Below, one piece after another: positions 8,327 through 44,809 of a DNA stretch of 64,000 nt. The notes under the pieces were generated by a model, which searched no databases, was not told the DNA's origin, and saw only the letters and a program-made list of their open reading frames with translations. The DNA comes from Amoebophrya sp. A120. Lineage: Eukaryota > Protista > Dinoflagellata. The first letter of the stretch is position 1, and each line of letters begins with the position of its first letter. The stretch lies in assembly GCA_905178155.1 (NCBI GenBank), contig CAJINV010000001.1:2222089-2286088 (forward strand). Direction: 5' to 3'. Both the position numbers and the translations under genes were made by a program.

Positions 8327-8771
8327 ACTTCGTTCTGAGACTATTTCTCGCTCGTCTTTAGAATTCGCACAGCACGTGGGGGTGGGGAAAAAAAGTCCCG
8401 TGCTGCAAAAAGAAAAGATGTGTGATTTCAATTTTGGTCAACAACGTTTTGCTTCCGAAATAGCTTAGCGTACGACAACGAGGCATCAAAAGGCAGTTGT
8501 CATGAACTAACACTGTACGCGTTTGTGAAAAAGACTGGCAAGCAGGCGCTACGAATCGAAAAAAAGACGAGTGCGACGACCCCCAGCCCCCCACGCATGG
8601 CAACAAAAAAAACGAAAAAAACCGGCAGCGCGTGCCACAATAAGTTGTTTTCCTTTTCGCAGCGATACATCCAACCGCAAATCAAGAGCAGATGCCCCCC
8701 AACCCATGGACGAGATATGATACGACCACATTGACCGACAACGGTCTTATGATACGAGATATGATACGACC

Positions 8772-9592: not shown

Positions 9593-11187
9593 GTTCCACT
9601 TTGCCTTCCACCACTCCCCTGCCTTCCACTTCCCCTGCCTCCCCTGCCTTCCACTTGCTCACTGCCAGATGGCACGCTCACGAAGCCCCACCAGGTTTAT
9701 CGACGCCAGCCTGCCTTCAACCGCGCCACCTGGTTTGGCGGCAGTCAGCAGGTGTCCATCAACAGGTGCTGGGCAGACTGACGTATCCGAATGGGTGAGC
9801 TTCGGGATTGGTGTCCGGCGGGGATGAGCTGGGTCGCGAAAGAGTTGGCACTTGTTGCGTCCGCCATGCGGACTACATCCTGGAGGACCTGGAAAGGGGT
9901 GCTGCTTTTGTCCGGCCAAGCCAGTGAAATTCGTATCCACAGTGACACCGACACGCCCGTCCAAGTAAAACCGAAGATCGCCCCGGCATTGCATAACAGG
10001 ACGAAATAAACTTAATTAAATCTTGTGCCTAGCATTACATATAGGTTCCGAAGTCGAGACCTCTTCCGACATGAAGTGGCAACCGTTGCCATAGGCCAGA
10101 TTTGCATGCCACTACAACTCTACGACACACTCACAAAACTGCAACCAAAGTCACATGCACAATCAACATACAAGAACTCTCTGCCGATTTGGAACATCGA
10201 CGAGGCCAATTTGTAAAACGACGAGGGCAGTTTGCGATCGAGACAAAGTGAGTCGAAAATCACACAAAATGCAAAAGACCATGCAATTTTTTATCTCTCT
10301 CATCGATCCGAAAACGAAATTTGTCAACTTTTTGAATTTGTTTTGAATTCGTTTTGAATTGATTTTAATGTAAGGCACTTTGGAGTTAACCCCAACCCAT
10401 GGACGAGATATGATACGACCACATTGACCGACAACTCGGAAAGGGGTGTCCGAAGGGGGCAAAAATGCACCCCCCTGACCACCCCCCTTGCCGGGTTTCC
10501 TCTTCCGGGCGAACGTCCTCGCTGTGGTCCGGTCCCGGAGGTGGCCCAACCACTTCTCGAAGAGCGGGCCTATTCAACATTGCCGGGCCATCTGAGCGAC
10601 AACGCACAGCACGAAGGCGCTGCCGCCTGTTTCGTGTCTTGCTATGAAGGCCTTTTGAAAGCCGAGCTATCACGTTCCTCGTGGAAAAGATGAAGTGATG
10701 CTGTACTTCTGTTGATTTCCGGGTAGTTGACTCCCTGACAAGAGAAAAAAAAATACCCCCCCAAAGTGTGAGCTGACAAAAATGATGCTATTTGCCGATT
10801 TTTCCGCCCTAACATGGACGAGATATGATACGACCACATTGACCGACAACGATGTGCAGTGTCCCCTAGTTCTACGAATTGTTACTTAGAGCTTTAACAC
10901 GCGTTAGCATGAGACGTGGCGAATCTCTAGTGAATTTTGCATGACAAATAGCAGAGGAGACTGCCGGGACATTGTCCCTCTCGCCCTTCTGGGAAGAGCG
11001 TTCTGCACACCGCAGAACTCGCCGGCTATGCGGCAGGCAGCTGGACATGGCCTGGGCGTCGTTCTTTGGCCATGTCTTTTCGTCTTCCTGTGCTTGCAAA
11101 AGAGCAGGCACTGCAGCAGCCGTGGCAAAGACGCCAAAAACAAGAGCCGCGAAGCACATACAGTTTAGGCAAGATGACGGCCCCACT

Positions 11188-11429
11188 TCCCAGGGCCTAC
11201 CTGTGCACTTTTTTGAGCACTTTTCTGCGCTAAAGTTTGCTTATCACGGTCGAAAATGGGCGCCCGGTGAATTTTGGGGTGAATTTTGAAAAAGCCGTGG
11301 GTGAATTTTGGCCCAAGGTGCCTATTCAAAATTCGCTAACGCACGAGAAACTCCGGGTTTTGGTGCTTCAAAAAAGTTTCGCCAAAACAAAAAGCCCCAA
11401 AATTCACCAAGAAGATTCCTGACCTGGGA
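11188..11429. repeat. Small foldback/MITE-like segment with GGTGAATTTTG subrepeats
   Basis: TCCCAGG...CCTGGGA ends. GGTGAATTTTG occurs three times at ~11265-11310, with an inverted copy CCCCAAAATTCACC at ~11395. Confidence 0.4.
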
Positions 11430-12077
11430 GTCACGTCAAAGAAGACTAGAGGACCCGACCAAGATGAGGCAGGAACACAGCTGGGACGAAGTTACAGAGC
11501 AAAGCAGGCGATGCTAGCATCCATTGCAACGCGTCTCCAGATGTTCAGGCCGAGACAGCAACGACCCGTGACGCGACTTCTCTATTTTGAGATATTGAGC
11601 TACTGCCCCTGCCCCCCTTTCCAGGCATGGCCCTCCCTATCGATCCGCCACCATCGAGTCTGTGGACCAACATGGAGTATTGTGTTGTAATACCGGCGCC
11701 ACAAGCCACCTGTGTTGCTTCTGCAGCCCACCAGCAGATGCCCCCCAACCCATGGACGAGATATGATACGACCACATTGACCGACAACGATGTGCAGTGT
11801 CCCCTAGTTCTACGAATTGTTACCGACCTTGACCTTGATTTTTGGAAGCACTTATTGGTATTTTCTTGAACAAAAGAATGCAGCAAAACGAAGAAAAGGC
11901 ACATAAACATATGCGGCTCCTCATGATTTTATTCGCTACGGTCAAACCGCGAGTTGTTGTACCACCAGCATTTACATCTAGGTTTCTATACTGATTGAAT
12001 GATTTACTTTTTCCACCTTTCGTGTCTGTTTCTTTTTTTTATCTACCACTTGACCCAGCAAGGATTTGACAGTCACA

Positions 12078-18548: not shown

Positions 18549-21500
18549 CTATAAAGAGCCACGCGACAGTGCCACGGAATTTTCCGACCGTAACGCACAC
18601 CAGAGGCGATCGAGTGTGTCCTGCGAGTTCTCGCCCTCTTCCAAAGCGTCCAAAATTCCCACAATTGTTTTTTGCCGTTCGCGGTCGTAATCCGCACGGC
18701 TGTCCACGCTGGCGTGCAGCATAGACGCTGTGGTTTCCCGCAGCTTATCCACTCGTCCGACCTCGGTGCTTCTGCCATGATCCCAAGCGGAGGTTGTTGT
18801 AAAGCGATTGTCTGTTCCCGTGTTGAAGCGTGCTGCAAAATGAGGATCTCCTGTCATCTGATCCCCGGGCACCATCGGGTTGAAGAACGTGACACCGCGC
18901 TTACTCCTACCCGCACCACCAGCAGCCCCGCCGTCACGAAACAAGTTGTGGTGGCCGCTGCCGCTCCGCGCCGCCGACGTCAGGCTACTACTCGCGCCGA
19001 CACGCACCGATGTGCGCCTGCTGGTGCCGCAGTGTTGACCACCTGCCTCAGTCGTAGCACGTCCTCCGCCAGGATTAGCCACTAAGGTGCGCCGCACCTG
19101 GAAATTCAACCCAGTAGATCCGGCGGATTTATTAGTACTTGCAACTACGGCCGTCGAGCGGCTTTGTGCCATGGTCAAGGGCGCGATATCATCGCGCAAC
19201 TCGTCCGAGTCGTCACTAGTACCCTCCTGCAGCTCCAGCGAGCGCTTGTTCCCGCTGATCCTCTTCGTGGTTCGGGATAAAACCACCAGCGCTTGCCGCG
19301 GCGCGGTGAAGAAAGGAAGTAGTGCTACTTTCGCAAGCTGTTTTTGAAACCAACTGGCAGGATCGGCGAAAAAGAACGATTTGTCGCGCCTTTGCTGCAA
19401 GTCACTGCTCAGGGTTTTCATCCACGCAGGAGTGCGCGAAGAGTCTCCATGCGACGACGCGCGGTGCGACACGGCTGCGTCCTCCGCAGCCTTCATGTGC
19501 GTATGAATTGCAAAAGTGTCTGGGTCTGGAAGGTGGCAACTTGTCATGGTAAATCTGAAGAATGCAAAAATCTGTATTGCATGAGTGCCAAAAGCTGTCC
19601 ACTTTTGACCAAGATGGACAGGAGTTTCTCATGCAGGTGGATGGGCATTGCAGAGACTTCGCAGAGTCTGTCGTGCTAAGTCCCGCATTCCAGACCACTC
19701 AGGGCTCATGGAAAATCTGCATGACAAGTTTACACTTTTCCAGACCCAGACATTTTTGCACTTGATAGTGCGCCGCCAGGTCCGATTCCAAGCTCGTGAT
19801 GTTTACGTTTTCAAACTCCCCCTCGTCCTCCTCCAGGTCGTCGGCAAAACTGCGGTCCTCGACCACGTGGCAGTTTTTCGCCCGGTCGCGCTGCCGGTAC
19901 ACCCAGCCGCAGAAGATCAGGATGAAGAGCACGTACACGCCGAACAGGAACCGGATCAACCAGTCGCGCAGGATCAAAAAGTCGCCTTGTGGGCCCTGGA
20001 CCCCGAACAGCGCGTGCAGGCCTCCCTGCAGAAAGTTCACGAGCAGCGTGGCCAGAATGAAAATGTCCAGGTAGGTGAGGTACCCGATGTTGCCAACACT
20101 CTCGCCGGCGCTCGACTTGAAGGACGCGCATCCTGAGTAAAAACGTCCCCACCCCAGAGTCAAGAAGGGGACTTTGCAACACAAACATAGAAGTTTTGGG
20201 ATTCACGCATCACAAATTTCAGTCCTCAGTGTAGTGCAGGTTAGCAGGGAAAAACGCATCACAGATCCATGTCCATCTGCTCTTCCTGGTTGATGCAGCA
20301 TTACAAATGCCAAAACACGACTAGAAACGCCTCTCATGAAGAGGCGCATTACAAATGCTCCTGTCATTGCGAATCTGCATGGCAACTCTGGGGTGGGGAC
20401 GTTTTTACAAATGATAACACGTTGGTCAGAATCACCATCACCACCACTGCGAGCCCGTCCCGCGGGTTGTCGATCGCGCCCAGCCGCTCCTCCACCCAGG
20501 CGAAGCTGAAAAAGCCGAACAGGTATGGATTGCAAAAATGTCTGGGTCTGGAAGATTTCAACTTGTCATGCTGTCTTTGGATTCTACAATAAATCTGTAT
20601 TGCATGAACGGCAAGAGAGGTCCAGTTTTTGTCATGGCCAGAGGGCATTTCTGATGCGGTATAGGCATCAGGAAGCTCTCATAAGATCTGTGATGCTAGG
20701 GCATGCATTACATGCATCATGGATCATACAAAATATGGGACGCTGGTCGTATCAGATTGCGTAAGTTGTAAAATCAGATTACGAAATGCAATCAGGTTAC
20801 TGAAATCAGATTACGAGACGCAATCAGGTTCTACCTAAGCGAACGCCAGGCGGCCCCAGCGGCCCGCCGGAATCAGTGGCGCGCCCAGCCGACCAAGGGG
20901 CTGGCCGACGGGATCAACGAGAACCACGACGGGGCAAGAACACAGCCAGACGAGCGGGCAAGCCGCGGGGGCGCATTGACTGGCGCAGCAACGAGAAGAG
21001 GGAGGCGTCGGCCAGGGCAGCCGCCGCCGGCCGGCCGGCCGGCGGCGGCTGCCCTGGCCGACGACCAGAAACCCCAAACCCTAGACCCCCAACCCTAACC
21101 CAGACTCCTGATTTCACTGATATTCTGAATTCAGTAACTTGATTGCACAACTAACCTGATTGTAATAATAAATCTGGGTCATGGTGCGTTCCACGTACCC
21201 AAATTCCACGTACCCAAATCTGCGCACCCAAATGGGTACTGTTTTTGGGCACCCGTGGGTGCCCAAATCCCGGCGGTACGAGGTGGCGTTGCGCGTTCCA
21301 GACGAATTGTTCAGAACTTTTATCTTGCGATTTTTGTTTTGTTTTTTCAGGATCGCAATAAAAATAAAATTTCAAAACTTCGCGGCCCAATCCGCGAAAT
21401 GTTAAAATTTAATTTTTATTGTCAAGAAAAAACACTTCTCTCGTAGCGCAAACTTTGCAGAAGAGTTGAATTCTATTGCAATAAAAATAAAATTTAGAAA

Positions 21501-24500
21501 CTCCGTGCCTTGAGCCGCGAAATCGGAGCGGAAAACCCACCCGGGTGCCGTTGGTTTTCTTTCTCATTCCTACCAACTAGACACGGCAGGCTTCCCAGCC
21601 TGGAAACCCTAAACGGGGCACGGGGGCGGAAGGACAATGGCCCGGGCAGGCTTCGGAGCGGAAAACCCACCCGGGCGCCGTCTTCTTTTTCATTCCTACC
21701 ACCTAGGCGCGGCACGCTTCCGGGCCCGAAAACCCTAAACCGGGAAGGGGGGGCGGGTAGACAATTACCAGGGCAGGCTTCATCGGAGTGGAAAACCCAC
21801 CCGGGCGCCGTTCTCTTTTTCAATTCATTCCTACCCCCGCGGCGCGGCAGGCTCTCGAGCCCGGAAACCCTAAACGGGGCACGGGGGGCGGAGAGACAGC
21901 TACCCGGGCAGGCTTCGGAGCGAAAAACAAGCCCAGGCGCCTTTTTCTGTTTCATTCCTACCACCGAGGCGCGGCAGGCTTCCGAGCCCGGAAACCCTAA
22001 ACGGGGCGCGGGGGGCGGGAGGACAGTTGCCCGGGCAAGCTTCGGAGCGGGAAACCCGCCCGGGCGCCGTTTTCTTTTTCATTTCTATCACATAGGCGCG
22101 GCAAGCCTTCGAGCCCGGAAACCCTAAACGGGGCACGGGGGGCGGGAGGACAGTTACCCGGGCAGGTTTCGTAGCGGAAAACCCGCCCGGGCGCCGTTTT
22201 CTTTTTCATTCCTACCACATAGGCGCGGCAGGCCTTCGAGCCCGGAAACCCTAAACGGGGAGGGGGGGGCGGGGGGACAGCTACCCGGGCAGGCTTCGCG
22301 GCGGAAAACCCACCCAGGCGCCGTTTTCTTTTTCATGCCCACCCAACAAATAGGCGCGGCAGGCTTTGGGGCCCGCAAACCCTAAACGGGGCACGGGGGG
22401 CGGGGAGACAGTGCCCCTAGCAGGCTTCGGAGCGGAAAACCCAAGACGGCGCCGCTGTGTTTTTCATTCCTACCAACTAGACACGGCAGCCTCCCGGGCC
22501 CACAAACGGACCCCAAACGGGGCACGGGGGCGGAAAGGCAGCGACCCGGGCAGGCTTCGTAGCGGAAAACCCGCCCGGGCGCCGTTCCCTTTTTCATTCC
22601 TACCCCCGCGGCGCGGCAGGCTCTCGAGCCCGGAAACCCTAAACGGGGCACGGGAGGCGGAGAGACATTTACCCGGGCAGGCTTCGGAGCGGAAAACCCA
22701 CCCAGTCGCCTTTTTCTGTTTCATTCCTACCACCGAGGCGCGGCAGGCTTCCGAGCCCGGAAACCCTAAACGGGGCTCGGGGGGCGGGAGGACAGTTGCC
22801 CGGGCAGGCTTCGGAGCGGGAAACCCGCCCGGGCGCCGTTTCCTTTTTCATTCCTACCACATAGTCGCGACACGCCCTCGAGCCCGGAAGCCCTAAACGG
22901 GGCGCGGGGGGCGGGAGGAAAGTTATCCGGGCAGGCTTCGGAGCGGAAAGCCCGCCCGGGCGCCGTTTTCTTTTTCATTCCTACCAAATAGGCGCGGCAG
23001 GCCTTCGAACCCGGGAACCCTAAGCGGGGAGAGGGGGGCGGGGGGACAGCTACCCGGGCAGGCTTCGGGGCGGAAAACCCACCCAGGCGCAGTTTTCTTT
23101 TTCATTCCTACCAAATAGGCGCGGCAGGCTTTCGAGCCCGGAAACCCTAAACGGGGCACGGGGGGCGGGGAGACAATGCCCCAGGGCAGGCTTCGGAGCG
23201 AGCGGAAAACCCAACAAGGCGCCGCTGTCTTTTTCATTCCTACCACCTAGACGCAGCAGGCTTCCGGGCCGAGAAACCCTAAACGGGGCACGGGGGCTGA
23301 AAGACAGTGACCCGGGCAGGCTTCGTAGCGGAAAACCCGCAAAGGCGCCGCTTTTTCTTTCATTCCTACCACCTAGGCGCGCAGGCTTCCGAGCCCGGAA
23401 ACCCTCCACGGGGAACGGGGGCCGGATAGACAATTACCCGAGCAAGCTTCGGAGCGGAAAACCCACCCGGGCGCCGCTCTCTTTCTCATTCCTGCCTCCT
23501 AGGCGCGGCAGGCTCCCTAGCCCGGAAACCTTAAACGGGGCGCGCGGGGCGGAAAGACAGTTTCCCGGGCAGGCTTCGGGGCGGAAAACCCACCCGGGCG
23601 CCGCGTTCTTTTGTTTGTTTTCATTCCTATCAGCTAGGCGAGGCAGGCTCACGAGCCCCAGGCCTAAGCGGGGCACGGCTGGCGGAGAGACAGCTACCCG
23701 GGAAGGCTTCGGGGCGAAAAACCCGCCCAGACGCCTTTTTTTTTGGTAGCGCGGGGCCCCTTCCCTAGATGCCCCCCTCCCCTAGATGCCATGTGGAGCC
23801 CGGCGCCCTAGATGCCATGTTGAGCATGGCCCCTCGTTCGCTCCTTGCAGGAGTTTTGGGCCCCCTAGATGCCATGTTCGTTGAGCATGGCACCCGTGTC
23901 AAGGAATCATGACAACCACAGTACGCCGCCCTCTTTCCACAACAAGTACCCCCAGGCCAAAAATAAAAGGAACGACATTTAGTGCACTGCATTGCAAACC
24001 GCCGCGCATTTTCTAGGCGGGCGCGAAAGGGCGATCCGCTTTACGGGACCGGCGGGAAGATCGAGCGCGGGACAGGAATGTAGAGGAGCCACCCGGGGGG
24101 TGGACCAGTGTGAAACAACGCGAGGCAAAGCACAGCTATGCTCTGCGGTCTCGCGCGTGCTGCGCAATGGCTTTGATAACGAGGGGGAGGACGAGAACGA
24201 CAGGCGTTGAGTCTAAAAATCTTATTTTTATTGGAGGAGTGGATGCGAAATTCGTCAGCTATATAATTTTAATCCGCGAATTTTCAAAATTTAATTTTTA
24301 TGGGCCGGAGAAAGCGAAACTGTCGGAGACGTGGTTCGCGAGGAAACAAGGCAAATCCGCGAAAGTTGGAAATTTTATTTTTAATTTTTTCATTGAAATT
24401 GAAAAAGCGACAACCTTTTTTGCAGTCCCAAATGTGTCTTGTAGCGTGGGGGTTCACGTCCGGAAAGAGGGCTCATTGGTTTGGGTGCGTGGTTTTGGGT

Positions 24501-28469: not shown

Positions 28470-31069
28470 TCAGCCACCCACCTCAGCCTTCGACAGGTCA
28501 TGATGCCACACCGGCCAGAGGGACTGGACGTCACACGGCGCACGGCACAGCGGACAACTCCGGTTCGCACTCACTACGAGGCGGAAAAGTCCGCCCCAGC
28601 CCAATTTTCAAAAATTTCAATATGTGGCTTTAGTAGTCCCGGTTAGAGGAGACAATCGGGAACGCGACCAAGCCAGTGGTCGCTGAATGCGGGGGCGCGC
28701 TTCGGGCGCTCCGCCTGCCTGGGCAGGGGCCAAGCGTCGCGCCGCGCCATATCCTTGCGCTCCTATTTGGCGAATGCGCATGGTGTGGCGCACTTTTGGG
28801 CGCCGACTTTCCTGGCCGTCGTATATTTGTGCGTGAATGCTTCACAATGTTTTCCAGAAAAGTCCGCCCCAGGACGAACAAGGAGGCCGAATCTGGTACC
28901 CGTCGACCCTGGGGCGGACTTTTCTTGATCGGGGTACTCAGGTCGGGATTGGCCTCTCCCAGAAAAGTCCGCCCCAGGCCGAACGGGCACTGCGCCAAGT
29001 GGTCGGTCGGAGAGGGCAAAAGAGGCGAAAAAACATGACACGGGGTCCCCGAGCCTCTGGGGCGCTATCATTAATTCAAGGCCAGTCCTGGACTGGCCCC
29101 ATTTCACACTGCGCGCCGGGCGGGAAACTGCCTTTCCAAGCTGCGCGGGTTGGGGCGTACAAGTCGCCACGAAGTCAATAATGGGAGTCGATCTCGCGGA
29201 GAAGAATACCGAGACGCAGCAGCGACAAACGGGGCATGCTTTCCGTGCGAAAAGATCTCGCGCAATGAAATTTTTGAAAATTGGGCTGGGGCGGACAACT
29301 CCGGTTCGCACTCACCCACGAATAGGCACAATCCCAGCAGAAAGCGCATCGGCGGGAAAAAAAACTGCAAGTCAGAGGACTGTAGTTGTTATTTTGCCTT
29401 GTAGTTATTGGACCTTGCGCGTGCTGCCCCGCCTTCTTGGTTATGGTTTCGCATAGGCATGACAAAAATTACTGTTTTCTGTTTGCCTTCAACAGCTGGG
29501 CCGCGTTTGTGAACTACAACCAGCTTCCCGCAAAGGCGTGCCATGACAAGCAATTTGGCCCTATAGATACTTACTCTATTTCTTCGTCGAGCAGTTTTCT
29601 TCTGTCTGCAAAAGCGCGAGCCTCCATCAAATAAATGTATACAGAATGGTACTACATCGACATCCAGTGTACACCAATGACGCAGTATAATTCTCCTCGA
29701 ATAACACGTGTCCACACTTAACGGACGTCGGTGCTCGGATTTCGCCAAAACAAATGTTGCAATCGATGCCGCCCGGCCGCGCCGTTCGTGGTGGTAGGGA
29801 CGGTTTCTTGCGCAGTTCTTCTCTTCGCAGCAGTCCTGGTGCTGCAGTAGTGTTTCGTTCAAATTTCTCTACTGTAGAAGAAGTGCTGCCGTTCATTTCA
29901 TGCAGATCTAGTCCGCCTGCCGCAGGAGCATCTATCGCTGGTTGACGATCATTCCTTTCGCTGCTAGAACGTGATTGTGACGTAGAATTAGCTGGTGGCT
30001 TCGAACCTTTTGCATGGATGATGCTGGTTTCAGCAGACAACATCCTGCTCTGTCTGTCTACTTCGTCTTCTTTTCCTTCGCTGAAGCTAACCCGGGGACC
30101 ACTTTTTGTCGGATGTCTTGAAAGCACAATATCTCCTATTCGTCGCTTCATCTCCAGGATCACTCGCGGAACAAGCACCTCATGCATCGGCGGCGCGTTC
30201 TTGTACAGCCGACGTAGGTACAGCGCTACCTGCACGACACACAGCGCGCTAAGTGCGTAAAAGTACCGCTGGACCATCGTTGTCGGCTTATTAACATCAT
30301 TCTTATCCGCTGCTGTCCTTCCCCGCCGTTCCTCGTATCCAAGCGAGCGCCGCCGCCAGCCGAGTAGCCGGTGCGGCAGACTTTCGTACATCCCGACAAG
30401 AAAGAAGGATGCACGGTTCAGCGTCAGCGCCAGTTGAAGTGCGTCATTGAGGAATTGACTTGTCCTCGGCGAGAGTCTTGATGCGCCCAGTACAGCAGGT
30501 AGAAGTTGGTTCGTCGCAACTTGCAATCCTGAGAGAAACACCCGGGAAAGAAATCCTGGCACGCGCTCCGCCCGAAAGAGATAATTATCTGGAGGCCAGC
30601 CACTACCGCTAGGCTTTCCTGTTTCATTCACTGGCGACCCAGGCCCGACTATTTCCGGTTCTAGTACTTCTCTCTGCCCCTGCTGAAGCTGATGTCGGTA
30701 GTTCCCGGAAACCGTAATATGCCGCGCAACCACTGGCGCCAGGTCCGCGTACTCTTCCCCGAGGGTGCGCGGTCCGGCCAGGAGGAGAAAATCCGCAAGC
30801 GCGTTGGCGACGCGCGGCAGGACGGCGCGGTACCGGTGGCACGTTTGGCTGCCAAAAAGGGTCTCCGCGAACTGGGCGAACCTCGCCCGGAATCTCTCCC
30901 GGTACTGCTCATCCTTCTGACTCGCCGCCAGGAGGTCGGTTGTGTCAGCATAGGGTGGGTACCAAATGGTCTTGTTATTTTCAAGTGCAGTCGAGTTCTT
31001 GGGTGGAATGAAGGGGGCACTAGAAGAAGAACTAGAACTAGACGAACTATCTGGCGCTATCTGCAACAT
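28470..31069 (-). CDS. PEX10: Peroxisomal RING peroxin PEX10
   Basis: Pex2/12 N-domain motifs ASQKDEQY, RTLGEEY and FFLVGMYESLPHRLLG. The RING is rebuilt from three pieces: CNICFGEIRAPTSVKCGH / xFCWDCAYSWVSANRSCP / LCRAPCDVQSLWPV. Stop at 28470. Confidence 0.88.
28575..29290. mobile_element. 716-bp inverted-repeat insertion with a 25-bp exonic duplication inside the PEX10 RING
   Basis: GCGGACAACTCCGGTTCGCACTCAC at 28550 and 29291. Perfect 31-bp IR at 28589-28619 / 29266-29296. Internal AAAAGTCCGCCCCAG motifs occur in both orientations. Confidence 0.8.
29347..29703. mobile_element. Degenerate introner (357 bp, F-like), TSD AAGCG/ACACG
   Basis: CATCGGCGGGAAAAAAAACTGC...GCAGTATAATTCTCCTCGAATA, with internal CATGACAA motifs. 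Removal joins CGH to xFCWDC. Confidence 0.75.
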
Positions 31070-31786: not shown

Positions 31787-34700
31787 TCACAACCCCTCCG
31801 TCAGCGAGGCTGGCTCCCCAAAATTTACCCCCATGCTCTGGTTGGTGCGCAGCCAATCGGCAAGCGGGATTCCGTCGACAACCGTCCCCACCTTCTTTGG
31901 ATCAACAGTTTGCGTTTTCACGTCCAAAGGTGGATCGTGAACGTGGCGCCAGAATTTTCTCGCTGCCCCGAGCAAGCTGGCCTTTGCGGTGCGTGCGCGG
32001 TAGGCAGAGGCCGTGATTTCGTCGGAGAGCTTCTGGGTTAGGAGATCTCGAACCGGATCCGTAATCTCGCTGTCCACGTGGTCCTGCACGGTCTTCTTGA
32101 TTCGAATACCAAACCCCTTTGCCTCCCGCATCCCCACACCGGCGGCCGTACGGGCGATTTCTCGTGCAAGTTTGGACTTCAGGGTGTATTCCCCGTCGGT
32201 CTTTTTTGCGGAGGATGCTGAAGATCCTGGAATAAAGGTCGAAAACGTGGAAGTAGAACGACTCGTCCCAGGAGGTGACGCGCTTCCACCAGCACTGCCG
32301 GAAAGAACCGAAGATGAAGCGCTGCCAGCCGGACCGGAGAAGGATCCAGATCCACGGGCACTAAAACCGCTGCTTCCACCAGCACCTTGTGGAATGATGT
32401 CTTCGCCGAAGTTTTCCCGGAGAACGCCCAAGGCCGTCGCAGTGCCACGGTTCGCAAGAGCTCGCTCCAGAGTGTGCTCGCGGCCCGCGAACTGCGCTGC
32501 GGACAGCCCCACCCCGGTCGGCGCGAAGGGGCGGATCGATTCACGCGGCTGATACTCGAAGGGACTGGAAAAGTAACCGCTGCCGGAAAAAGAAGATCCG
32601 GCACCGCCTGCGGAAAAAGCGCGTAATTCAGAAGAAGAGCTGCCAATCCGCCCTGCGCTTGCCCTCCTCGACACTGTGGCCGGGACCTCTCCTGCACTGC
32701 TTGCATTATCTAACGGCTGCGCGATGCTGTCGACCGAAGCTGCTCCTGTTGCTCCTTCCCCACCCGGTTCATCTGCTACTTCTGGCTGCTGCGCCAGCAA
32801 CGCACCCAGAACATTTCTCAACGAGCTTCCGGCGGCTCGACGAGGCTTGATCTCTGAATCGCTCGAAAATGACCCGGAAGTAGAGGAGCCACTGAAGGAC
32901 GATGCTGCAGACCCAGAGCTACCTGCACTCCCCGAGGACCACGTCACCAAGCTTCCCGGCACACCGGTGGCGATGAATTCTTCGCGATTTTGCAACCCCA
33001 ATGGGACCAAGTAGTTCTGCAAAAAATGGTAGTGCACCAGTGCATCTACATCCTTTTCCGCGTTCTCGTTTTGCAGAAATTTGACACTGTTCTTCACAAC
33101 GTGTTTCAGTTCGGCCTCCGCGCGCGCAAACAGGTCCAAGAGCTCCGTCCGCGCCCCGTGCACCGCCGCAATCGGCGCGCGGGCGACGGCGGCGTGCGCC
33201 TGTTGCAGGGCGGACTTGTACGTTTCGTCGAGAACCTATGCACAGAAAAAGATCCTCCCTCATCCATTTTTGCATGGCCAACACGTGACATGTTTCGCAT
33301 GACAAATTGGACGAGGATGGGTCCTTTTTTGTGGATAGGACCAGCAAGGAGGCGCGCGCACTGGCAGTGACCACCTCGAGCGGCGTGCCGCCAAAGGGCG
33401 AGCTGATTACACAACAAGCCGGGACCGGAATCGCCGAGCTGCCGACAGACGGTGGTGAAGTAGATCCACCTGATGTTCCACCAGAGCCGCCTGACACCGA
33501 ACTACTACCTGTAGTCGTTTTCACAATTCCTGCTCCACCGTTGGTCCCCCTATCTACTTCATCTCCCGGGGAAACAAGTGCGTCAGTGCTTCCCATTGCG
33601 GAACTGCTTCCAGGAGCCCCCATGATCACCTGCTCTCCAGTAGTTCCAGCACCGGCTGCCAAATCGTTCATATCAGGAGGACCTTGCTGCACGAGCTGCG
33701 TGTCTTCATCTCGCGGTAGTTGTACTCGTGCACGACGTCCGAGAACGCCGCCGGAGGACATAAACGAGCCGACAGGAGGTCTACTTCCGCCGGTAGATGT
33801 TGACCTCGCACTGCTACTACTACCCGAGAACAATAAATGCGCGTCGAAATGCTGACACAACTCCGAGACCTTCTTCCGTGCTGCCTGCTCCGCCTGCGAT
33901 TGCAGGGTGGGATCGCTGGGAAGGACCGGCGGCGGCGTTGTTGTGGCGGCTACGACCACCGGCTTTTCCGGCGGGGGGCACTTCGGACAGGTCAGTTTCT
34001 TGCCGCACCCGTCATCCACCTCTTTGCCGCACTCCGCAGGGGTGCACTGCGTGCGCGGCTTCGTCTTGCCTGAAATATGTTTTTGTCTTTCCGATTCCTT
34101 TTCCTCCACCGTGATTTGGCACAGATAATATTTCGGGTCTACTTCGGTGATGTGAAAAACCAGGTGCATGTAGTCTGTTGAATCCCCATCCCCTCCAAGT
34201 ACAGGAAAGATTGCACTAGATACTTACCCTTAGCCTTACGCACAAAACTCTCAAAAATAAGCGCAAGCATATGTACATTGGCAGCTGTTCATCTTTTTCC
34301 CGGCTTCCATTCCCGACGAAGATGTTGCCTTGCAGACCTGCCAGGCCTCCTTGCACTTGCCACACTGGATCTTTCCGCCGCAGCCGTCGTCTTCCTCCCC
34401 ACAGGTGGAGGCGCACTTTTTCTTTTCACACACGCACTTGTTCTGCACGCACCGGTCCTGGGCGTTTTGGCAAACGCCGCAGGACACCTTCCCGCCGCAA
34501 CCGTCCAACTGCGTGCCGCACGTCAGACCCTCGTCGCACTGCGCCTTCACCGTGCAACGGCACTGAAACAGCTCCAACGGCTGCGACAAAGCCCACAGCG
34601 ACAGAGGAACCGCTCCCGCATGATGTGCAGCTTCAGGTTCAGCTTGTGCGCCAGCGCTAGCATACCTGTAATGATCTACTACTTCCGGGGTCGACAGTAA

Positions 34701-37700
34701 TGCCAGTTGCAGAGCAGCGGCGCTGCCAGTCGAAGATGCGGTGGGCACCATCAAGGACCCCCCTCCGGATGTTGAAAAGGAGCCAGCAGAAGAAAACGCA
34801 GCAGCAGGTGGTTTTTGGTTCCAATACTCCAATTTCAAATGCAAAAGTGTCTGGGTCTGGAAGAGTGCGCGACTTGTCACGCAGCTTTTCTATGACCCAT
34901 GAGGTCTGGAATGCAGGACTTAGCATGACAGACTCTGCGCGATCTCTCTCATGCCTATCCTGCATGAGAAACTCCCTCCCGACTTGGTCAAAACTGGACG
35001 ACTTTTGGTAGTCATGCAACACAGATTTTTGCATGCTTCAGATTTAGCATGACAAGTTGCATTCTTCCAGACCCAGACATTTTTACATTTCATATCCAAC
35101 TCATAGAACCCGCAGGTGTATGGTTCGTTCGTCTCCGTGTTTCGTTCCGCGCAAAAGGATTTCAGCGGTTCCGCCGTGCGCCGCGGGTCGGTCAGTTGCA
35201 AAAAATTTCGCATCACATCCACGTACCCGGGGGACGTCACGGGCGGCAGCGACCGCGCGCCACACGCGATTTGGTTTCCGCACCCGTCGGGCTCGAACCC
35301 GCAGCCCTTGTTGTGGCTGCACTTCGCCTTCGGCTGGCACACACACTGGTTCTGCACGCACACGCCTGGGTTGTTCGTCAGGGAGTTGTAGCTTTTTTTA
35401 AGCCTGTTTGAAGCAGTAGAACTTGATGTAGTTTGAGTTTCACTTTTTTCCGCCGCACAAGATTGCACGTACTTCTCCAGTGTCCGCGTCAGAGCCTCCA
35501 CAATCTTCGCCGCGGATTTCTGTGCGACGAAAGGGAGCGCGGAGTAGTCCACGGTAGCAATGACGTCTTCTGGCAGGGCGGAAGGACTTCTGTTGGTACG
35601 ACCTCCGGACGACGAGGACGACCCAGAGCCAGAGGTCGAAGAAGATGATGAAGCTCCAGGTAGTAAAAAACGCACCTCCCCGATTGGCGCTGAAGGTTCC
35701 TCTGCCATCTTCGCGGCTCCACCTGCAGTACTTCCCGAGGCGGATCCAGCTGAACTCGTGCTTGTTCCACTGAACAACGGGGTTGAAGATGTACTACGTG
35801 CTATCGAACTACCTGGAGCTTGGTGTGCCAAGGCAGCAGCTCTACTCCGCTTCTTTGTGGAAAAAGCCGCAAAGAAGTGTTCTTGCAACAGCGATGTACT
35901 ACCAGAAAGACCACTTGGCGCATTCGACGACCCCGAGCCGGACTTTGCTGCTACTTCCCTGTTCTCCGCGTCCAGGGCTGCCTGCTGCTTCAACGCCGCC
36001 TGGCGTAGTAAGTTGTGGTTCCCGCAGTACACGAAGCCCCCGCAGCCGTCCTCGATGAACCCACAGTCGAAGTGGTCGCAGGAGGTCACACTGCTTTTGC
36101 AGTCCGATTTCACCATGACCAGTTCCCACTGTTGCGACGCGGAGTTCGGGTCTGACGGCTTGGTGGAGGTCACGGTAACAAAGCTGTTGTTCGCCTGTAG
36201 TCCAGGAGCCACTGGAACGGTATCGGAATCTAGCGCCTCTCCATTCTCGTGCTTTAAAATTCGCACAACGTTGCCCTTCACCCATCGCACTAGCCACTTT
36301 TGCGACCGGTCACGGTGTTTCATTTTTGAGAGGTACGTTGCGTGCTTCTGATTTGCGCTTCTTGATGATGTGGTTGCACTCTCCCTGCTGCCGAAATTTT
36401 TCGTAGTGCTCACACCTATTGTAGTGTAGTTTCTTGCGCCAGTTGTTGTACTAGCAGACATCGACACAAACGAATCTAGGAAGAGCGCGTCCGCGTCGCC
36501 CCCCGCGAGAAGCGAGTACAGAGCCCCATGCCCGATTGGCTTAATGCGCCACGCGGTCGTCGTGCTGCGAGCGAGTGCAGATTTCAATATTCCCGCCTCT
36601 TGGGTAGATTCGTGCTGCTCAGCTACAACCGCGCTGGCGCTGTCGTAAGAACCTTCGTCGTGCTGGTCCTTGTGCTGTAGAAAGGAACGAGATCTCTTTC
36701 TGCTCTCTTCCTGCTCCGACACCAGCGACGACACTGGCCTTGCAATGCTGGTGACTGAGGAAGACGCGCTACTGCTAGCAGCTGGTGGTCCTTGTGCAGG
36801 AGTAGGCCCAGCAGGCGATGCACTTACGATACCTGACTGCGAAGGAGCACCAGTCACGGCACGAGCCTGAGACTGACTGCTTCCGAACGAAGCAGCTGCA
36901 TCAGTCGCGACCTGCCCCTCTGCGGGGGCTTCTGCAGAAGCTTTATTCCCGGTAATAATCCGAATCGGGGCCCTTGAAGTAGCACCATTCATCGTCGAGG
37001 ACAACGCTGCTTCGCTTCCTGCTGAGCCCGCTGGTAGTTTCATTTCACTTGGAGGTCCGTCGACGAGCAGCAGCCCCGCCAGGGGACTAGCGGCGGAAGC
37101 CATACTGAGGTACTTCCCCGAGGACAGCTGTCTCAGGGCGTAGTACCCATCAAAGCTTGGCTTCTTCTGGATGGGCAGCGTGACCCACTTCTGCGAAAAG
37201 TTCTCCTGCTTGTCGCTAATCCCAGCCGCCGTGGTGTGCAGCAGACGGACAGCGGCGGTGGAACTGGAAGCTTCATTTGCCGCATGACGCTTTTCTTTTT
37301 TCGCGGTATTTGTGGATGTGCGGAGTAGTTGCTTCTGCTTGTTTAACTTGAAATTCTCCTCTTCGTGCTGCTGTACCATGCTCAAAGGTCCCACCGTCGG
37401 AGCACGCCCCCCCGCTGCCGATGCCACAGTTGGCGCTGCCAGTTGTGTGGTTGTACTAGACTCGCTGCTTCCACCGAGGAAACCAGTACTGGAACCACCC
37501 TGAAGCCCGGCTGAACTACCACCCGGCACCGCTGCAGAACCAGTGGTCAGCTGCGGCCCTACATCAAACGCGTCCAGTACCCGGCCCGTCGAGCACTGTA
37601 CGATGCGCCACTCGGCGCTGTTCCCGCTGTTCAGCTTCAACGGCTGCATATGGCGTTCTCAAACGTTACATTCTCAACTGTTACATGGGTCTGTCATGCA

Positions 37701-40054
37701 AAAGTGCCTTCAGCCGGCAGATGATCGAGCTGCTTCGCATGACAAATATCGGAAGGGCTGAACAACATCTAAATCTGCGCCAAACTTGTAATGCAAAAGG
37801 CGCAATCTTCCTCCTTTCAGTTTTGCCAGTCTTGCATGACAAATTCATGTAACAGTTGAGAATGTAACAGTTGAGAATGTAACAGTTGAGAACCCCATAC
37901 TGCAAGTACCAGAGCTGCGACGCGTCCCCCTCTGCCAGTTTCAGTGTGCCCGCATACTTATGAATTGCAAAAGTGTCTGGGTCTGGAAGGGTGTAAACTT
38001 GTCATGCAGGTTCTCCATGACCCATGAGGTCTGGCATGCGGGACCTAGCATGACAGAGTCTGTGAGGTCTCTGTCATGCTTATCCTGCATAAGAAACTCC
38101 CTCCCAAATTGGTCGAAAGTGGACAACGAACTTTTGGCAGTCATGCAACACAGATTTTTGCATGATTCGGCTTTAGCACGACAAGTTGCAATCTTCCAGA
38201 CCCAGACATTTTTGCAATCCATAATACTGGTACGCAAACGTCGCGTTTTCCCGTTCGACCGCGTCCATGTACCGACCAGAGCTCCATTGGTCGATCGTGT
38301 ACACGCTGCCCTGGACAATATGCAATGCAAAGGCATAAGCGAGCCCCTCTAGTATAAATTGCATCTTCACAAATTTTTCAAAGTAAGGCTGCGACAGCCA
38401 CAGCTATAATTGTCCAGCTCACCATTTCTAGCAGAAATCTCTTGTACCATAATGCTACGGGTAAGTACAACGAGCGCGATTTAATACTTTTGCCTTGGAT
38501 ACACAAGTGAAAACTCCCATTTCTGGGAGTCGGCGGTCAGGTCCAGGGGCTTCATACCCAGCTGCGTCAGCGAGACGGAATCCAGGGCCAAATCCGTGTT
38601 TTTCTGCTTCACCGAATAGACCATCCCACAAAAAAACTATTTCACTGTGTCTGTGACGATTTTGCAAGACCTGCATTACAAATTTGTTACACATGACGCA
38701 GAATATTTGCCATGCGCGCTTTTCAAGGGAAAACACGCTTGGAAATCCAATGTCTTGCAGGTGTAGCAAGACAGACACTTTGGTGCTTCATTTTCTGCAT
38801 CACAAGTTCACAGCGAAACAGTTTTTTCTTGCGATATACACACCGGACAGCGCAATCAGGTCCCGAACCTTTTCGAACACCCACAAACCGCTTGTTGGTC
38901 CGTTTTGTTCTTCGACATCAGTAGACGAACCAGACGCAGTGGAGGACGAAGCAACGGTCACCTCTGGACGAGAAAGTGGTGCTCCCCCTGGACGTCGTGT
39001 GAGCATCCCGTTACTGCCAGGTCCACCTGAAGATGTCGTGCTGTCGTCGTGCACTGGAACCTCTAGCTTCTGCGCACTGGACTCCTGGATCACCTCGTGG
39101 CTGAGAGGCTATGCAGTGCAAAAGTATGGTATCTATCGTACTCGTATAAATGCATTACAAATTCCCCCAGCATGAAAAATATAATTTGTAATGCAGATTT
39201 GCCTTGGAAACAAGATTTGTAATGCAAGACTTGCATTTGTACGAGTACGATACTTTTGCACAGGATAGAGGCTCTCCCTCGGCAATCTCCCGCAGCCGCA
39301 GTATGAAATGCAAAAATGTCTGGGTCTGGAAACTTGTAATGCTGCGTTGGAAATAGTGAATGCTCTGCAATGCATAGACAAGCATGAGAAATATCTGCGC
39401 TTCTTTGTGTTGCGTTTTTCGAATGACAAACTGCGTTTTTGCATGACAGGCAAAAGGGTCTCGTCTTGGACACGCATCACAAACTTTTTGGTCATGCCAG
39501 ACAAGCATGACAAAACTCGCAATCTTCCAGACCGAGACATTTTTGCATTTGATACGCAGAACCCATCGCTGATGGTTCCCGAGATCCGGTGGCTGGAGCG
39601 AAAAAACAACTTGCTGGTGCTCCGGCTGGGAGCTGCCACGAGGACCTTGATGTTCTGTTCCACCAGATCCTCCGGCCACAAACCGGCCGCTTTGCACCTG
39701 CTGCAGTGTGTAGGTGTCATCCTTTTCGGCGCGACGCACTATCCAGTCCTGCGACCAGCTGTTGCTCGCACCATTCGACGTTTGCAAGGCTTCACCGTCC
39801 GGAGAATCCAGGTAGCGCCCGGTGCTTTTTTCGAAAATCCGGTAAATCCCGTCGAGCTCGCCCGGCGAGGGGACCTTCTGGGCCTGCGCAACGTCGAAGA
39901 CGACGGAGAAGTGCTGGCTCAGAGACGCAACGAGAGCCAGACAGTGCAAGAATCCGTGCAGCAGAGGACCCGTCATAGTACACCTTTTGCGCAGCCTTGG
40001 TACCCCCGCCGCAGCCCGGTCGTCGCGGTTGTGAGATGAGATACTGGACGACAT
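31787..40054 (-). CDS. Very large secreted/surface protein with ricin-B (QxW) lectin-like repeats and CGxxxDGCG Cys-rich repeats; 8 introners
   Basis: Signal-like LLHGFLHCLALVASLS. Repeated Y.I.Q..SG.YLD...SQxW units and CG..xDGCG..xxCG repeats. Frame is restored across 39302, 39110, 38622, 38319, 37959, 37649, 34833, 33237 and GT-AG intron 34070-34276. A further 3' exon is possible (GTGAGT donor at 31790). Confidence 0.75.
33237..33337. mobile_element. Short introner family E (101 bp), TSD GAACC/GGACC
   Basis: TATGCACAGAAAAAGATCC...GGGTCCTTTTTTGTGGATA. Join LLVL/DETYK links ORFs 32919 and 31787. Confidence 0.8.
34833..35094. mobile_element. Introner family A (262 bp), TSD TCCAA
   Basis: Family A TIRs (left end TTT). 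Join YEL/EYW. Confidence 0.9.
37649..37899. mobile_element. Introner family D (251 bp), TSD CTGCA
   Basis: TATGGCGTTCTCAAACGTTACATTCTCAACTGTTACA TIR built from 15-bp TGTAACAGTTGAGAA subrepeats. Join WYLQ/PLK. Confidence 0.92.
37959..38223. mobile_element. Introner family A (265 bp), TSD ATACT
   Basis: Family A TIRs. Join AYQY/AGT. Confidence 0.92.
38319..38501. mobile_element. Degenerate introner family B (183 bp), TSD GACAA/CACAA
   Basis: TATGCAATGCAAAGGCAT...ATACTTTTGCCTTGGATA. Join SQKWEFSLV/QGSVY. Confidence 0.8.
38622..38836. mobile_element. Introner family F (215 bp), TSD TAGAC/TACAC
   Basis: CATCCCACAAAAAAACTATTTCACTGTG...CACAGCGAAACAGTTTTTTCTTGCGATA. Join LSGVY/SVKQ. Confidence 0.82.
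39110..39267. mobile_element. Introner family B (158 bp), TSD GAGGC
   Basis: Family B TIRs. Join GEPL/SHEV. Confidence 0.9.
39302..39554. mobile_element. Introner family A (253 bp), TSD CGCAG
   Basis: Family A TIRs. 3n and stop-free in the host frame. Join WVLR/LREI. Confidence 0.92.
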
Positions 40055-42538: not shown

Positions 42539-44809
42539 TCACTTTTGCGGTGTATTCATATCCCTACGAGCCGTCATTCTCGCAGCTCCCCGTGCCTCCG
42601 CCTCATTATCCCCAGCTCCCAAATTTTGGTGATAATGCTCACGAAAGATGCGCTTTAGCTGCTCAACGTCCCACCGGGTAAGGTGAGGGCTCTGCTGTAG
42701 ATCCGCCCGGGCCGAGTCGCGTGCACTGCTAGTGCTCATGTTGCAGTAGTTCGAACTCTCGTAAAAGTCGCGCAGAGCAGCGAAGACCGCTTTGCGCTCC
42801 TCGACCGCGCTCGCAGTCAGCTCGGAGTTTCTCTGCATTTCAGCCCGCGTCGCTGCCCGCGCATCAGTGGTGCTCATGTTGCAATACATATAATTCTCGT
42901 AGAATTCGTAAAGCGGCCTGAACACCAGTTTCCGCCGTTCGACGTCACTACGACTTAGGTCGGGGCTGCTCTCGATTTCAGCCCGCGCCGCTGCCCGCGC
43001 ATCAGTGGTGCCCATGTTGCAATACATATAATTCTCGTAAAATTCGTAAAGCGGTCTAAACACCTGCTTGCGCCGTTCGACGTCACTAGGACTTAGGTCG
43101 GGGTTTCTCTGGATTTCAGCCCGCGCCGCTGCCCGCGCATCAGTGGTGCCCATGTTGCAATACATAGAATTCTCATAGAATTCGTAAAGCGGTCTAAACA
43201 CCAGTTTCCGCCGTTCGACGTCACTACGACTTAGGTCGGGGCTGCTCTCGATTTCAGCCCGCGCCGCTGCCCGCGCATCAGTGGTGCCCATGTTGCAATA
43301 CATATAATTCTCGTAAAATTCGTAAAGCGGTCTAAACACCTGCTTGCGCCGTTCGACGTCACTAGGACTTAGGTCGGGGTTTCTCTGGATTTCAGCCCGC
43401 GCCGCTGCCCGCGCATCAGTGGTGCCCATGTTGCAATACATAGAATTGTCATAGAATTCGTAAAGCGGTCTAAACACCTGTTTGCGCCGTTCGACGTCAG
43501 TAGGACTTAGGTTGGGGTTGCTCTCGATTTCAGCCCGCGCCGCTGCCCGCGCATCAGTGGTGCCCATGTTGCAATACATAGAATTCTCGTAGAATTCGTA
43601 AAGCGGTCTAAACACCTGTTTGCGCCGTTCGACGTCACTAGGACTTAGGTCGGGGTTGCTCTGGATTTCAGCCCGCGCCGCTGTCCGCGCATCAGTGGTG
43701 CCCATGTTGCAATACATAGAATTCTCGTAGAATTCGTAAAGCGGTCTAAAAACCTGCTTGCGCCGTTCGACGTCACTAGGACTTAGGTCGGGGTTGCTCT
43801 GGATTTCAGCCCGCGCCGCCGCCCGCGCATCGGTGGTGCCCATGTTGCAATACATAGAATTCTCGTAGAATTCGTAAAGCGGTCTAAACACCTGTTTACG
43901 CCGCTGGACGTCACTAGGACTTAGGTCGGGGCTACTCCGGATTTCATCCCGCGCCGCTACCCGCGCATCAGGTGTGCCCATGTTGCAGTACATAGAATTT
44001 CCGTAAAATTCGTGAAGCAGTGCGAACACCTGTTTCCACCGCTGGACGTCACTAGGACTTAGGTCGGGGTTTCTCTCGATTTCAAGCTGCGTCGCGGCCC
44101 GCGCACTAGTGGTGCACATGTTGCAGTACATAGAATTCGCGTAAAATTCGAACAGCGGCCGGAAAACCTCTTTGCGCCGTTCGACGTCATGTGCAGTTAG
44201 ACGGGGGTTCCGTTCAATTTCAAGCCGCGCCACGTTGCGCGCGTGACTGGACAGCAAGTTGCAATACGAAGAATTCTCGTAAAACGTGAGCAGTGGCTGG
44301 AAAACTGACTTACGCCGCTCAACGTCATTCACAGTCAAATCCGGGTTGCGCTGGATTTCGAGCTGCGCTGCCTCGCGCGCGTCCGACCCTATCAAATGTA
44401 AAAATGTCTGGGTCTGGAAGAATGCGCGATTTGTCATGCAGCTTTTCCATGACTCATGAGGTCTGGAATGCAGGAACTAGCATGACAGATTCTGTGCGAC
44501 CTTTCTCATGCGTATCCTGCATGAGAAACTGCCTCCCGACTTGGTCAAAACTGCACGACTTTTGGTAATCATGCAACACAGATTTTTGCATGCTGCAGAT
44601 TTAGCATGACAAGTTCCAATCTTCCAGACCCAGACATTTTTACATTTGATAGCCCCACTCATGTTGCAATACACCGGATTCTCGTAAAAAACGTACAGAG
44701 CCCTGAAAGCCTCTTGCTGGTGATAGGCGGAGCTCGCCCAGACGACCCTCTCGGTGCCGAGGGCCAGCGAAGCCACCCCGCGCAGCCAATAGGTTGCCGA
44801 CAAGCCCAT
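42539..44809 (-). CDS. Tandem-repeat protein with 13 x 46-aa helical repeats
   Basis: Unit FRPLYEFYENSMYCNMGTTDARAAARAEIQSNPDLSPSDVERRKQV (138-bp period). The first exon MGLSATY...YCNMSG joins in frame across introner 44390-44651. Confidence 0.85.
44390..44651. mobile_element. Introner family A (262 bp), TSD GACCC/GCCCC
   Basis: Family A TIRs. In-frame join NMSG[S/A]DAR continues the repeat register. Confidence 0.92.

What the first reader, a model, noticed from the sequence alone, without database searches (positions are those of the whole stretch)
28550..29315. A different intron-like insertion with a 25-bp coding duplication splits the last CxxC of PEX10
The codons VSANRSCP are duplicated on both sides of a 716-bp IR-bounded insert. 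Removing 741 nt restores C-P-L-C-R, whereas retention loses the final Zn ligand and stops at 29175. It lacks TAT...ATA ends. The obvious canonical pair (TGG|GTGAGT...CGTAG|TGAGT) drops one base and creates TGA, so correct splicing needs a non-canonical donor, again after a G. The duplicated exon sequence overlaps the IR (GCGGAC) and partly resembles the element end (CACTACGAGGCGGAAAAGTCCGC, CACTA-like), hinting at homology-guided insertion.
Basis: partly seen in the sequence, partly recalled or inferred. Interest (0 to 1): 0.8.

Follow-up and report, generated by a model that had tools for sequence, protein, structure and literature searches.

The report
Introner with host-overwritten end, partly spliced
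In the marine parasite Amoebophrya, a small hairpin-ended jumping element sits in the zinc finger of the peroxisome gene PEX10 between two perfect 25-base copies of gene sequence; it is likely an ordinary transposon-intron whose one end was overwritten by look-alike host sequence, and contigs that are likely RNA hold both a cleanly joined and an unspliced form, so it is probably a young, partly spliced intron that the public gene model missed.

Summary
The 25-nt duplication, the 716-nt insert and the broken last CxxC of PEX10 are real and are not an assembly artefact. Likely-RNA contigs of one sample contain the exact 741-nt joined form (about 60%) beside a read-through retained form (about 40%). 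DNA contigs show only the filled allele. The public A120 protein model is the retained form.

The insert is probably not a different class. Its intact end reads TAC-N7-AAAA, close to the A120 introner consensus. The 25 nt split into a 5-nt duplication plus 20 nt of host exon that match the element's tip at 14 of 20 positions, in exact register (8 of 126,398 window sites do as well). The best reading is a normal TA-ended, 5-bp-duplication introner whose other tip was exchanged for host sequence. The RNA hairpin still closes, so the usual cut likely gives a GT…GA intron. CACTA is not supported.

The main rival is reverse-transcriptase skipping between the repeats, which would make this a knockout. 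The scan noted long duplications and the fixed cut register before, on other DNA of this genome. New variant of a known system; interest 0.5.

The parts
29703..31069 (-). PEX10 exon 1 (Pex2_Pex12 domain and first half of the RING)
   Evidence: Pfam PF04757; identical to P0001 = CAD7923340.1, named by its source as Amoebophrya sp. A120
29343..29704 (-). Upstream 362-nt non-canonical intron; looks like a decayed TAT...ATG element with a mismatched 5-nt duplication. No contig cover inside it. Three registers fit; the one given is 1 before and 4 after the element.
   Evidence: Joint 29340 to 29703 with 2 shared letters in X3; same junction as a loose end in X3, X4, X6; ends printed
29291..29315 (+). 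Duplicate copy 2 (gene-upstream copy, codons VSANRSCP). Re-parsed as 20 nt in the place of the element's right tip (29291-29310) plus a 5-nt duplication (29311-29315).
29297..29310 (+). 14 nt of host sequence standing where the outer 14 nt of the right inverted repeat would be (8 of 14 still match the left tip)
   Evidence: inference
29266..29296 (+). Right arm of the perfect 31-bp inverted repeat; its last 6 nt are shared with the host duplicate
28575..29290 (.). Insert body (716 nt; 736 nt to 29310 under the re-parse). No Pfam match in 4 of 4 ORFs tested; no Rfam match at a family's own threshold. The 16-nt terminal motif recurs exactly at 28584, 28857, 28909 (minus) and 28962.
28575..28619 (+). 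Intact left terminal inverted repeat, 45 nt, beginning TAC-N7-AAAA
   Evidence: sibling contigs begin to match at 28575
28550..28574 (+). Duplicate copy 1 (gene-downstream copy): a 20-nt end-like host stretch (28550-28569) plus a 5-nt duplication (28570-28574)
28571..29311 (-). Predicted intron (741 nt, GT...GA) if the cut falls 1 nt before and 4 nt after the hairpin; one of 26 equivalent registers
   Evidence: register inferred
28470..28549 (-). Last coding stretch of PEX10 (final RING cysteine and tail to the stop), conserved with the AT5.2 orthologue

Best explanation
The insert is likely an ordinary Amoebophrya A120 introner (a TA-ended, non-autonomous inverted-repeat transposon making a 5-bp duplication) whose one tip was probably exchanged in register for look-alike host exon sequence, and which is probably spliced from about 60% of PEX10 transcripts. 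Step 1 (inferred): it landed 5 nt from a host 20-mer that matches its own tip at 14 of 20 positions. Step 2 (inferred): during or soon after insertion, strand exchange between the right tip plus duplication and the host flank plus duplication (19 of 25 identical) replaced the outer 14 nt of that tip, resolving inside the shared 6 nt. This lengthened the apparent duplication from 5 to 25 nt. Step 3 (computed): the pre-mRNA hairpin still closes to the terminal UA, because the host copy pairs with the intact tip. Step 4 (product shown, enzyme and register inferred): the cell's non-canonical splicing removes exactly 741 nt, most likely at 28571-29311 (GT...GA), restoring the RING. Removal is incomplete, plausibly because the 5' TA and the A at -7 of ordinary A120 introners are both changed here.
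For: Joined form: a 35-nt unitig lying at 29291-29320 with 5 letters left over in X3 (depth 15.5) and X6 (depth 10), and a 1551-nt X4 record that begins 5 letters before 29291. A k=31 graph simulation of exact removal plus retention gives records of 31, 35, 54, 74, 305 and 706 nt, all seen in X3; 4 of 4 canonical alternatives that ran gave other sets. DNA run X1 does not break at 28574 or 29291. Insert cover in X3 is not DNA carry-over, since the neighbouring intron has none, and it matches the window at every letter whereas X1's collapsed record differs at 3. Interior depth (8.9) equals retained-junction depth (9.1 and 9.8), about half the exon depth (19-22). Tip likeness: 14 of 20 at offset 5 only, 3-7 at the other 12 offsets; 8 of 126,398 window sites reach 14. 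The 5-nt rule holds in 14 of 19 window TAT elements exactly, and in 5 with mismatches. The duplicated codons are native host: the AT5.2 orthologue keeps the same RING stretch, and 116 of 150 relatives have the restored 10-residue spacing. The hairpin pairs down to the terminal UA with probability 0.96 or more. All 9 predominant A120 splice-site types in Table S4 have T at +2.
Against: One sample only (X3 = X4 = X6), contigs not raw reads, library type not on record, and RNA status is a guess. The 5 unlaid letters of the junction were not printed. Contig depth is a poor measure, so 60% is rough. X4 lacks the right retained-junction record. No sibling copy was seen with both flanks, so a 5-bp duplication and a full right tip for this family are inferred; the tip inference rests on depth steps of 95, 70.6 and 42.9 against 24-27, which the tool warns are no copy number. 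The left end scores below all 38 TAT ends on a matrix built from them (2.6 against a minimum of 5.0 bits; top 0.19% of window sites). The cut register was not pinned here: the PEX10 upstream intron allows three registers, and the annotated protein P0151 was uninformative. Chance alone would give only a few such end-like sites genome-wide.
Confidence: 0.58

Rival explanations
1. [quoted passage not shown] All real mRNA retains the insert and the allele is a recent PEX10 knockout.
For: The geometry is the textbook one. Falsitrons reached up to 70% of cDNA reads with repeats of 3-16 nt (PMC8240250, passages). Removal is partial here while the neighbouring intron has no cover. The public model is the retained form, and PEX10 is not among the six peroxins listed in PMC7789003.
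Against: Skipping at the hairpin base would not halve cover of the 650-nt loop in a library fragmented before reverse transcription, yet interior depth equals retained-junction depth (holds only for such libraries, and the type is unknown). The organism removes hairpin introns without GT-AG routinely, including in this gene. The usual geometry yields an exact, T-at-+2 register.
Confidence: 0.17
2. One-ended insertion finished by microhomology repair: only the left end was joined by the transposase, and the right end annealed at the shared 6 nt, so the 25-nt length is accidental (closest to the first reader's view and to note e1-10627074).
For: 6-nt microhomology at the right junction. Long duplications were noted elsewhere in this genome (unchecked).
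Against: It does not predict that the end-like stretch lies exactly 5 nt from the joined end, the standard duplication length.
Confidence: 0.1
3. No splicing: the RNA came from a mixed culture in which about 60% of cells carry an empty or precisely reverted allele, and the filled allele is never spliced.
For: The RNA and DNA runs are different samples. 25-nt repeats favour precise deletion. Contigs drop rare variants.
Against: No branch in DNA run X1. The insert differs at 3 of 706 letters from its collapsed sibling, which suggests it is older than a laboratory culture (inference).
Confidence: 0.08
4. A true 25-bp staggered cut (5 plus two helical turns, as in IS481EU and IS1202), followed by loss of 20 nt of the right tip by slippage.
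For: IS481EU makes about 4, 15 or 25-bp duplications within one family, and is not separated from the TA..TA-ended IS3EU/GingerRoot group (PMC10045372, passages and discussion).
Against: It needs two rare events and still leaves the 14-of-20 likeness unexplained. No 15- or 25-nt duplication among 19 window elements.
Confidence: 0.05

Closest known systems
Introner elements / non-canonical introns of Amoebophrya sp. A120 (Farhat et al. 2021, PMC7789003; abstract, passages, sections 10, 11, 16, supplement passages and part 3 of 5 read)
   Same: Same organism by database label; inverted-repeat ends with an A-run at positions 11-14; non-coding; absent from the joined transcript form without GT-AG; probably repeated in the genome
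   Different: Direct repeat 25 nt against 3-5; TAC rather than TAT; one tip replaced by host sequence; substantial retention
A120 introner families of Gozashti et al. 2025 (PMC12130899; passages; supplement file 8 rows 1-41 of 58 seen), including fam38 noted as '5-bp TSD, TA/TA Termini'
   Same: TA termini, size near 0.7-0.8 kb, inverted repeat near 45-50 bp
   Different: The column I read as duplication length gives 2-6 in the 26 of 41 rows with a value. The element's end motifs were not found in 12 of 14 supplement files searched (long cells are cut). No family assignment possible.
End-targeted insertion of IS911 and IS30 (PMC9333248 and PMC7986276, passages)
   Same: An end joined a few bases from an end-like sequence, with sequence conversion by branch migration, would give this structure
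   Different: Bacterial copy-out-paste-in elements with a known transposase; none identified here, and ordinary window introners show no such targeting
IS481EU (PMC10045372; passages and discussion)
   Same: A 25-bp duplication class beside a short class
   Different: There the element between the duplications is intact; here one tip is missing
Falsitrons such as CD19 exon 2 (PMC8240250; passages)
   Same: Direct repeats at the base of a hairpin, partial skipping in cDNA data
   Different: This organism does remove such hairpin introns in vivo; the artefact is untested here

Membership tests
A120 introner elements | Inverted repeats at both intron ends forming a hairpin | tested here: met
   31 bp perfect, stem extends to the terminal UA; fold z-score -6.2 against 20 shuffles
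A120 introner elements | Direct repeat of 3-5 nt at the boundaries | tested here: inconclusive
   Literally 25 nt; 5 nt under the re-parse; no sibling seen with both flanks
A120 introner elements | End begins TAT, 7 variable nt, then 3 or more A | tested here: inconclusive
   TAC, 7 nt, AAAA: third base differs; matrix score below all 38 TAT ends
A120 introner elements | Removed from RNA without GT-AG | tested here: met
   Exact 741-nt joined form in 3 of 3 likely-RNA runs of one sample; no exact register is GT-AG; RT artefact not excluded
A120 introner elements | Repeated in the genome, no transposase | tested here: met
   X1 body record differs at 3 letters and has about 1.7 times flank depth; further contigs share the left end; 0 of 4 ORFs with a Pfam match
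CACTA (EnSpm) | Termini CACTA...TAGTG with a 3-bp duplication (recalled) | tested here: not met
   CAC lies in the host duplicate; sibling contigs match from TACGAG with other flanks; the right end has no TAGTG
IS3EU/GingerRoot | TA..TA termini | tested here: inconclusive
   TA at the intact end; the other tip is replaced (for the feature)
IS3EU/GingerRoot | Duplication usually 6 bp | tested here: not met
   5 nt in the window's TA-ended elements and under the re-parse
IS3EU/GingerRoot | IS3-like DDE transposase | not testable with these tools
   Non-autonomous insert; no genome held
Tc1/mariner MITE | TA target duplication (recalled) | tested here: not met
   The empty site has no TA at the insertion point
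IS481EU-type long duplication | Intact element between 25-bp duplications | tested here: not met
   The right tip lacks 14-20 nt relative to the left
Falsitron (RT artefact) | Present in cDNA, absent in direct RNA reads | not testable with these tools
   Only contigs of unknown library type
PEX10 | Pex2_Pex12 domain plus C-terminal RING | tested here: met
   relative P0004 is named peroxisome biogenesis protein 10

The most novel reading that the evidence does not exclude
The unknown transposase of A120 introners took a cryptic end in the host exon as partner, transferred one element end 5 nt from it, and host branch migration finished the insertion: a eukaryotic case of IS911/IS30-type end-targeted insertion. 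This would point to IS3-like chemistry for these introners. The resulting intron, lacking the 5' TA and the -7 A yet about 60% removed, would show that hairpin geometry alone can set the cut in a spliceosome with no detectable U1.
Probability: 0.15. Interest if true: 0.8.

Novelty: new variant of a known kind. Interest (0 to 1): 0.5.

Why it matters
How A120 inserts and splices tens of thousands of non-GT-AG introns is an open question. This locus is a natural mutant: the hairpin is kept, but the terminal bases of one end are swapped for host sequence, and removal drops to roughly 60% while the neighbouring intron is removed fully. That separates hairpin geometry from end sequence in one testable gene. 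The 20-plus-5 structure is also a footprint of how insertions are resolved, and offers a rule for the long duplications noted elsewhere in this genome. Practically, the public PEX10 model (CAD7923340.1) has a truncated RING, probably by annotation error. It is one locus in a published system, and the RT artefact is not excluded, which caps the score.

Tried and rejected
No genome is held, so sibling copies could not be read. Raw-read runs X9 and X10 gave 0 laid reads and metatranscriptome X8 gave 0 on the 70-nt stretch: no test. A 21-nt end motif found 0 stretches in metagenome contigs. A 16-nt motif gave 11 viral loci; the top 40 blast lines showed nothing beyond 22 nt, taken as chance. A PEX10 profile search of metagenomes returned 80 loci whose best segments were 56% identical or less, so no empty allele was seen. 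The only Rfam hit, mir-9338 at 24.8 bits against a threshold of 98, reflects the internal hairpin. General end-targeting was tested and not found: 38 flanks of 19 ordinary elements average 5.4 of 20 at offset 5, maximum 10. Pinning the cut register with annotated protein P0151 failed because the informative change is synonymous. In one search the sixth variant (723 nt) did not run. CACTA and mariner were rejected (see membership). Paper searches for a described equivalent listed none describing a host-overwritten introner tip, judged from titles, abstract starts and the passages read; the library lacks most subscription papers, and figures, 17 of 58 A120 family rows and bioRxiv supplements were not seen.

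Full report
Observation. The window has a perfect 25-nt direct repeat at 28550-28574 and 29291-29315 and a perfect 31-bp inverted repeat at 28589-28619 and 29266-29296. On the minus strand lies a Pex2_Pex12 plus RING gene, identical over its first exon to a protein that its source names Amoebophrya sp. A120 (P0001, CAD7923340.1). Removing 741 nt restores CPLC and a 26-residue tail (498 aa). Retention gives a 38-residue foreign tail and a stop at 29177-29175. The public model is the retained form. The duplicated codons are native host: the AT5.2 orthologue has the same RING stretch and tail, and 116 of 150 relatives have the restored spacing of 10 residues (19 had no motif match, 15 had other spacings). 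The homologue search returned no second A120 PEX10 among 7990 candidates of 255-814 aa, and DNA run X1 showed no second copy.

Transcripts. X3 is probably RNA: it skips the upstream intron 29341-29702 and has no cover there or beyond 31135. Its records break at exactly 28574 and 29291, where DNA run X1 runs through. From unexplained depth in one bin I inferred an unshown 35-nt junction record of depth about 15. One search showed it: 35 nt, depth 15.5 in X3 and depth 10 in X6, and X4 has a long record starting 5 letters before 29291. A k=31 simulation of retained plus exactly joined transcripts gives records of 31, 35, 54, 74, 305 and 706 nt, all seen in X3. Four canonical alternatives give other sets. 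Retained-junction records have depths of 9.1 and 9.8 (X3), 7.9 and 6.6 (X6) and 6.2 (X4, left only). The joined share is therefore roughly 55-65%, a rough figure from contigs of one sample. In X3 the retained form is covered across the whole insert.

What the insert is. Contigs from other loci begin to match at 28575 with different flanks, so the terminus is TACGAG and CAC is host; CACTA fails. The end reads TAC, 7 nt, AAAA, against the published A120 pattern of TAT, 7 nt, three or more A (PMC7789003 section 11). It scores lower than all 38 TAT ends in the window but within the top 0.19% of sites. A 16-nt terminal motif recurs exactly four times inside the insert and nowhere else in the window. 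X1's record of the body differs from the window at 3 of 706 letters and has about 1.7 times flank depth, which suggests a second, near-identical copy. Depth steps of 95 and 70.6 suggest that three of four arms extend past the point where ours stops. Both inferences are weak, as contig depth is no copy number.

The re-parse. The host 20-mer in the duplicate matches the element's terminal 20 nt at 14 positions, and only at an offset of 5 nt from the intact end (3-7 matches at the other 12 offsets). Eight of 126,398 window sites match as well. Five is the duplication length of the window's ordinary introners (14 of 19 exact, 5 with mismatches). So 25 = 20 + 5: a standard duplication plus a tip whose outer 14 nt are host sequence. 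The inner 31 bp are perfectly symmetric and the Cys-Pro codons are conserved, so host overwrote element and not the reverse (inference). The simplest route is exchange between two stretches identical at 19 of 25 positions, during or soon after insertion. Ordinary elements show no flank-to-tip likeness (mean 5.4 of 20), so targeting is not general. Chance would give only about four such sites among 29,850 introners (my estimate), which keeps open a rare targeted pathway like that described for IS30 and IS911 (passages).

How it is likely removed. Exact removal has 26 equivalent registers and none is GT-AG. The fold pairs the host copy with the intact tip down to the terminal UA (probability 0.96 or more). 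Earlier AI notes on other windows propose a cut 1 nt before and 4 nt after the element, with a 5' TA and an A at -7 (unchecked leads). I could test this only partly. The upstream PEX10 intron keeps four bases of the left duplicate, and one of its three possible registers has both features. All 9 predominant A120 site types have T at +2 (Table S4). P0151 was uninformative. Applied here, the rule gives 28571-29311, GT...GA, with G in place of A at both +3 and -7, a plausible reason for partial removal (inference).

Rivals. Reverse-transcriptase skipping is the serious one: up to 70% of cDNA reads with shorter repeats (PMC8240250). The halved cover of the loop interior argues against it only if the library was fragmented before reverse transcription, which is not on record. 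A mixed culture with an empty allele, a one-ended insertion with accidental length, and an IS481EU-like 25-bp cut are less likely, for the reasons listed under rivals.

Comparison and verdict. Published A120 introners have 3-5-nt repeats. The family table of PMC12130899 gives 2-6 in the 26 of 41 rows seen with a value, in the column I read as duplication length, and notes one family as 5-bp TSD with TA/TA termini. A review (PMC11282704, passages) and a dinoflagellate preprint (10.1101/2020.10.14.339549, passages) describe only short duplications. Repair-born Daphnia introns with direct repeats were seen as a search listing only. The searches named under Tried and rejected listed no paper on a host-overwritten introner tip. 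Long duplications were noted on other DNA of this genome (e1-10627074). The finding is real and is a new variant of a known system. I put the re-parse near 0.8, real splicing near 0.75 and the whole explanation at 0.58. Interest 0.5.

Noticed in passing
window 29343-29704: The upstream PEX10 intron looks like a decayed TAT...ATG introner with a mismatched 5-nt duplication. It has no contig cover in X3 despite little remaining hairpin and only 2 shared letters, so RT skipping cannot easily explain it.
   Followed up: yes
window 8687-11823: A 38-73-nt sequence recurs at about 8705, 10398, 10813 and 11751 as nested long direct repeats; possibly more long-duplication inserts or a small repeat family.
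   Followed up: no
window 21500-23750: Tandem array of about 127-nt GC-rich units, some 17 copies.
   Followed up: no
window 42633-44715: Coding tandem repeat of 138-nt (46-residue) units, interrupted by a TAT introner at 44390-44651.
   Followed up: no
window 31790-40054: 2110-aa gene P0151 with a ricin-type lectin domain has 9 introns: 8 look like TAT-type elements (7 have the size of a mapped element plus 5 nt) and one can be read as GT-AG beginning GTAC with an A at -7.
   Followed up: partly
window 4527-60172: 19 TAT...ATA elements with 5-nt duplications, 14 exact and 5 mismatched: the published introner system.
   Followed up: partly
window 28575-28613 (run X3): A 180-nt likely-RNA contig carries only the terminal 39 nt of this family between unrelated sequence on both sides, so related ends sit in other transcribed loci.
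   Followed up: no
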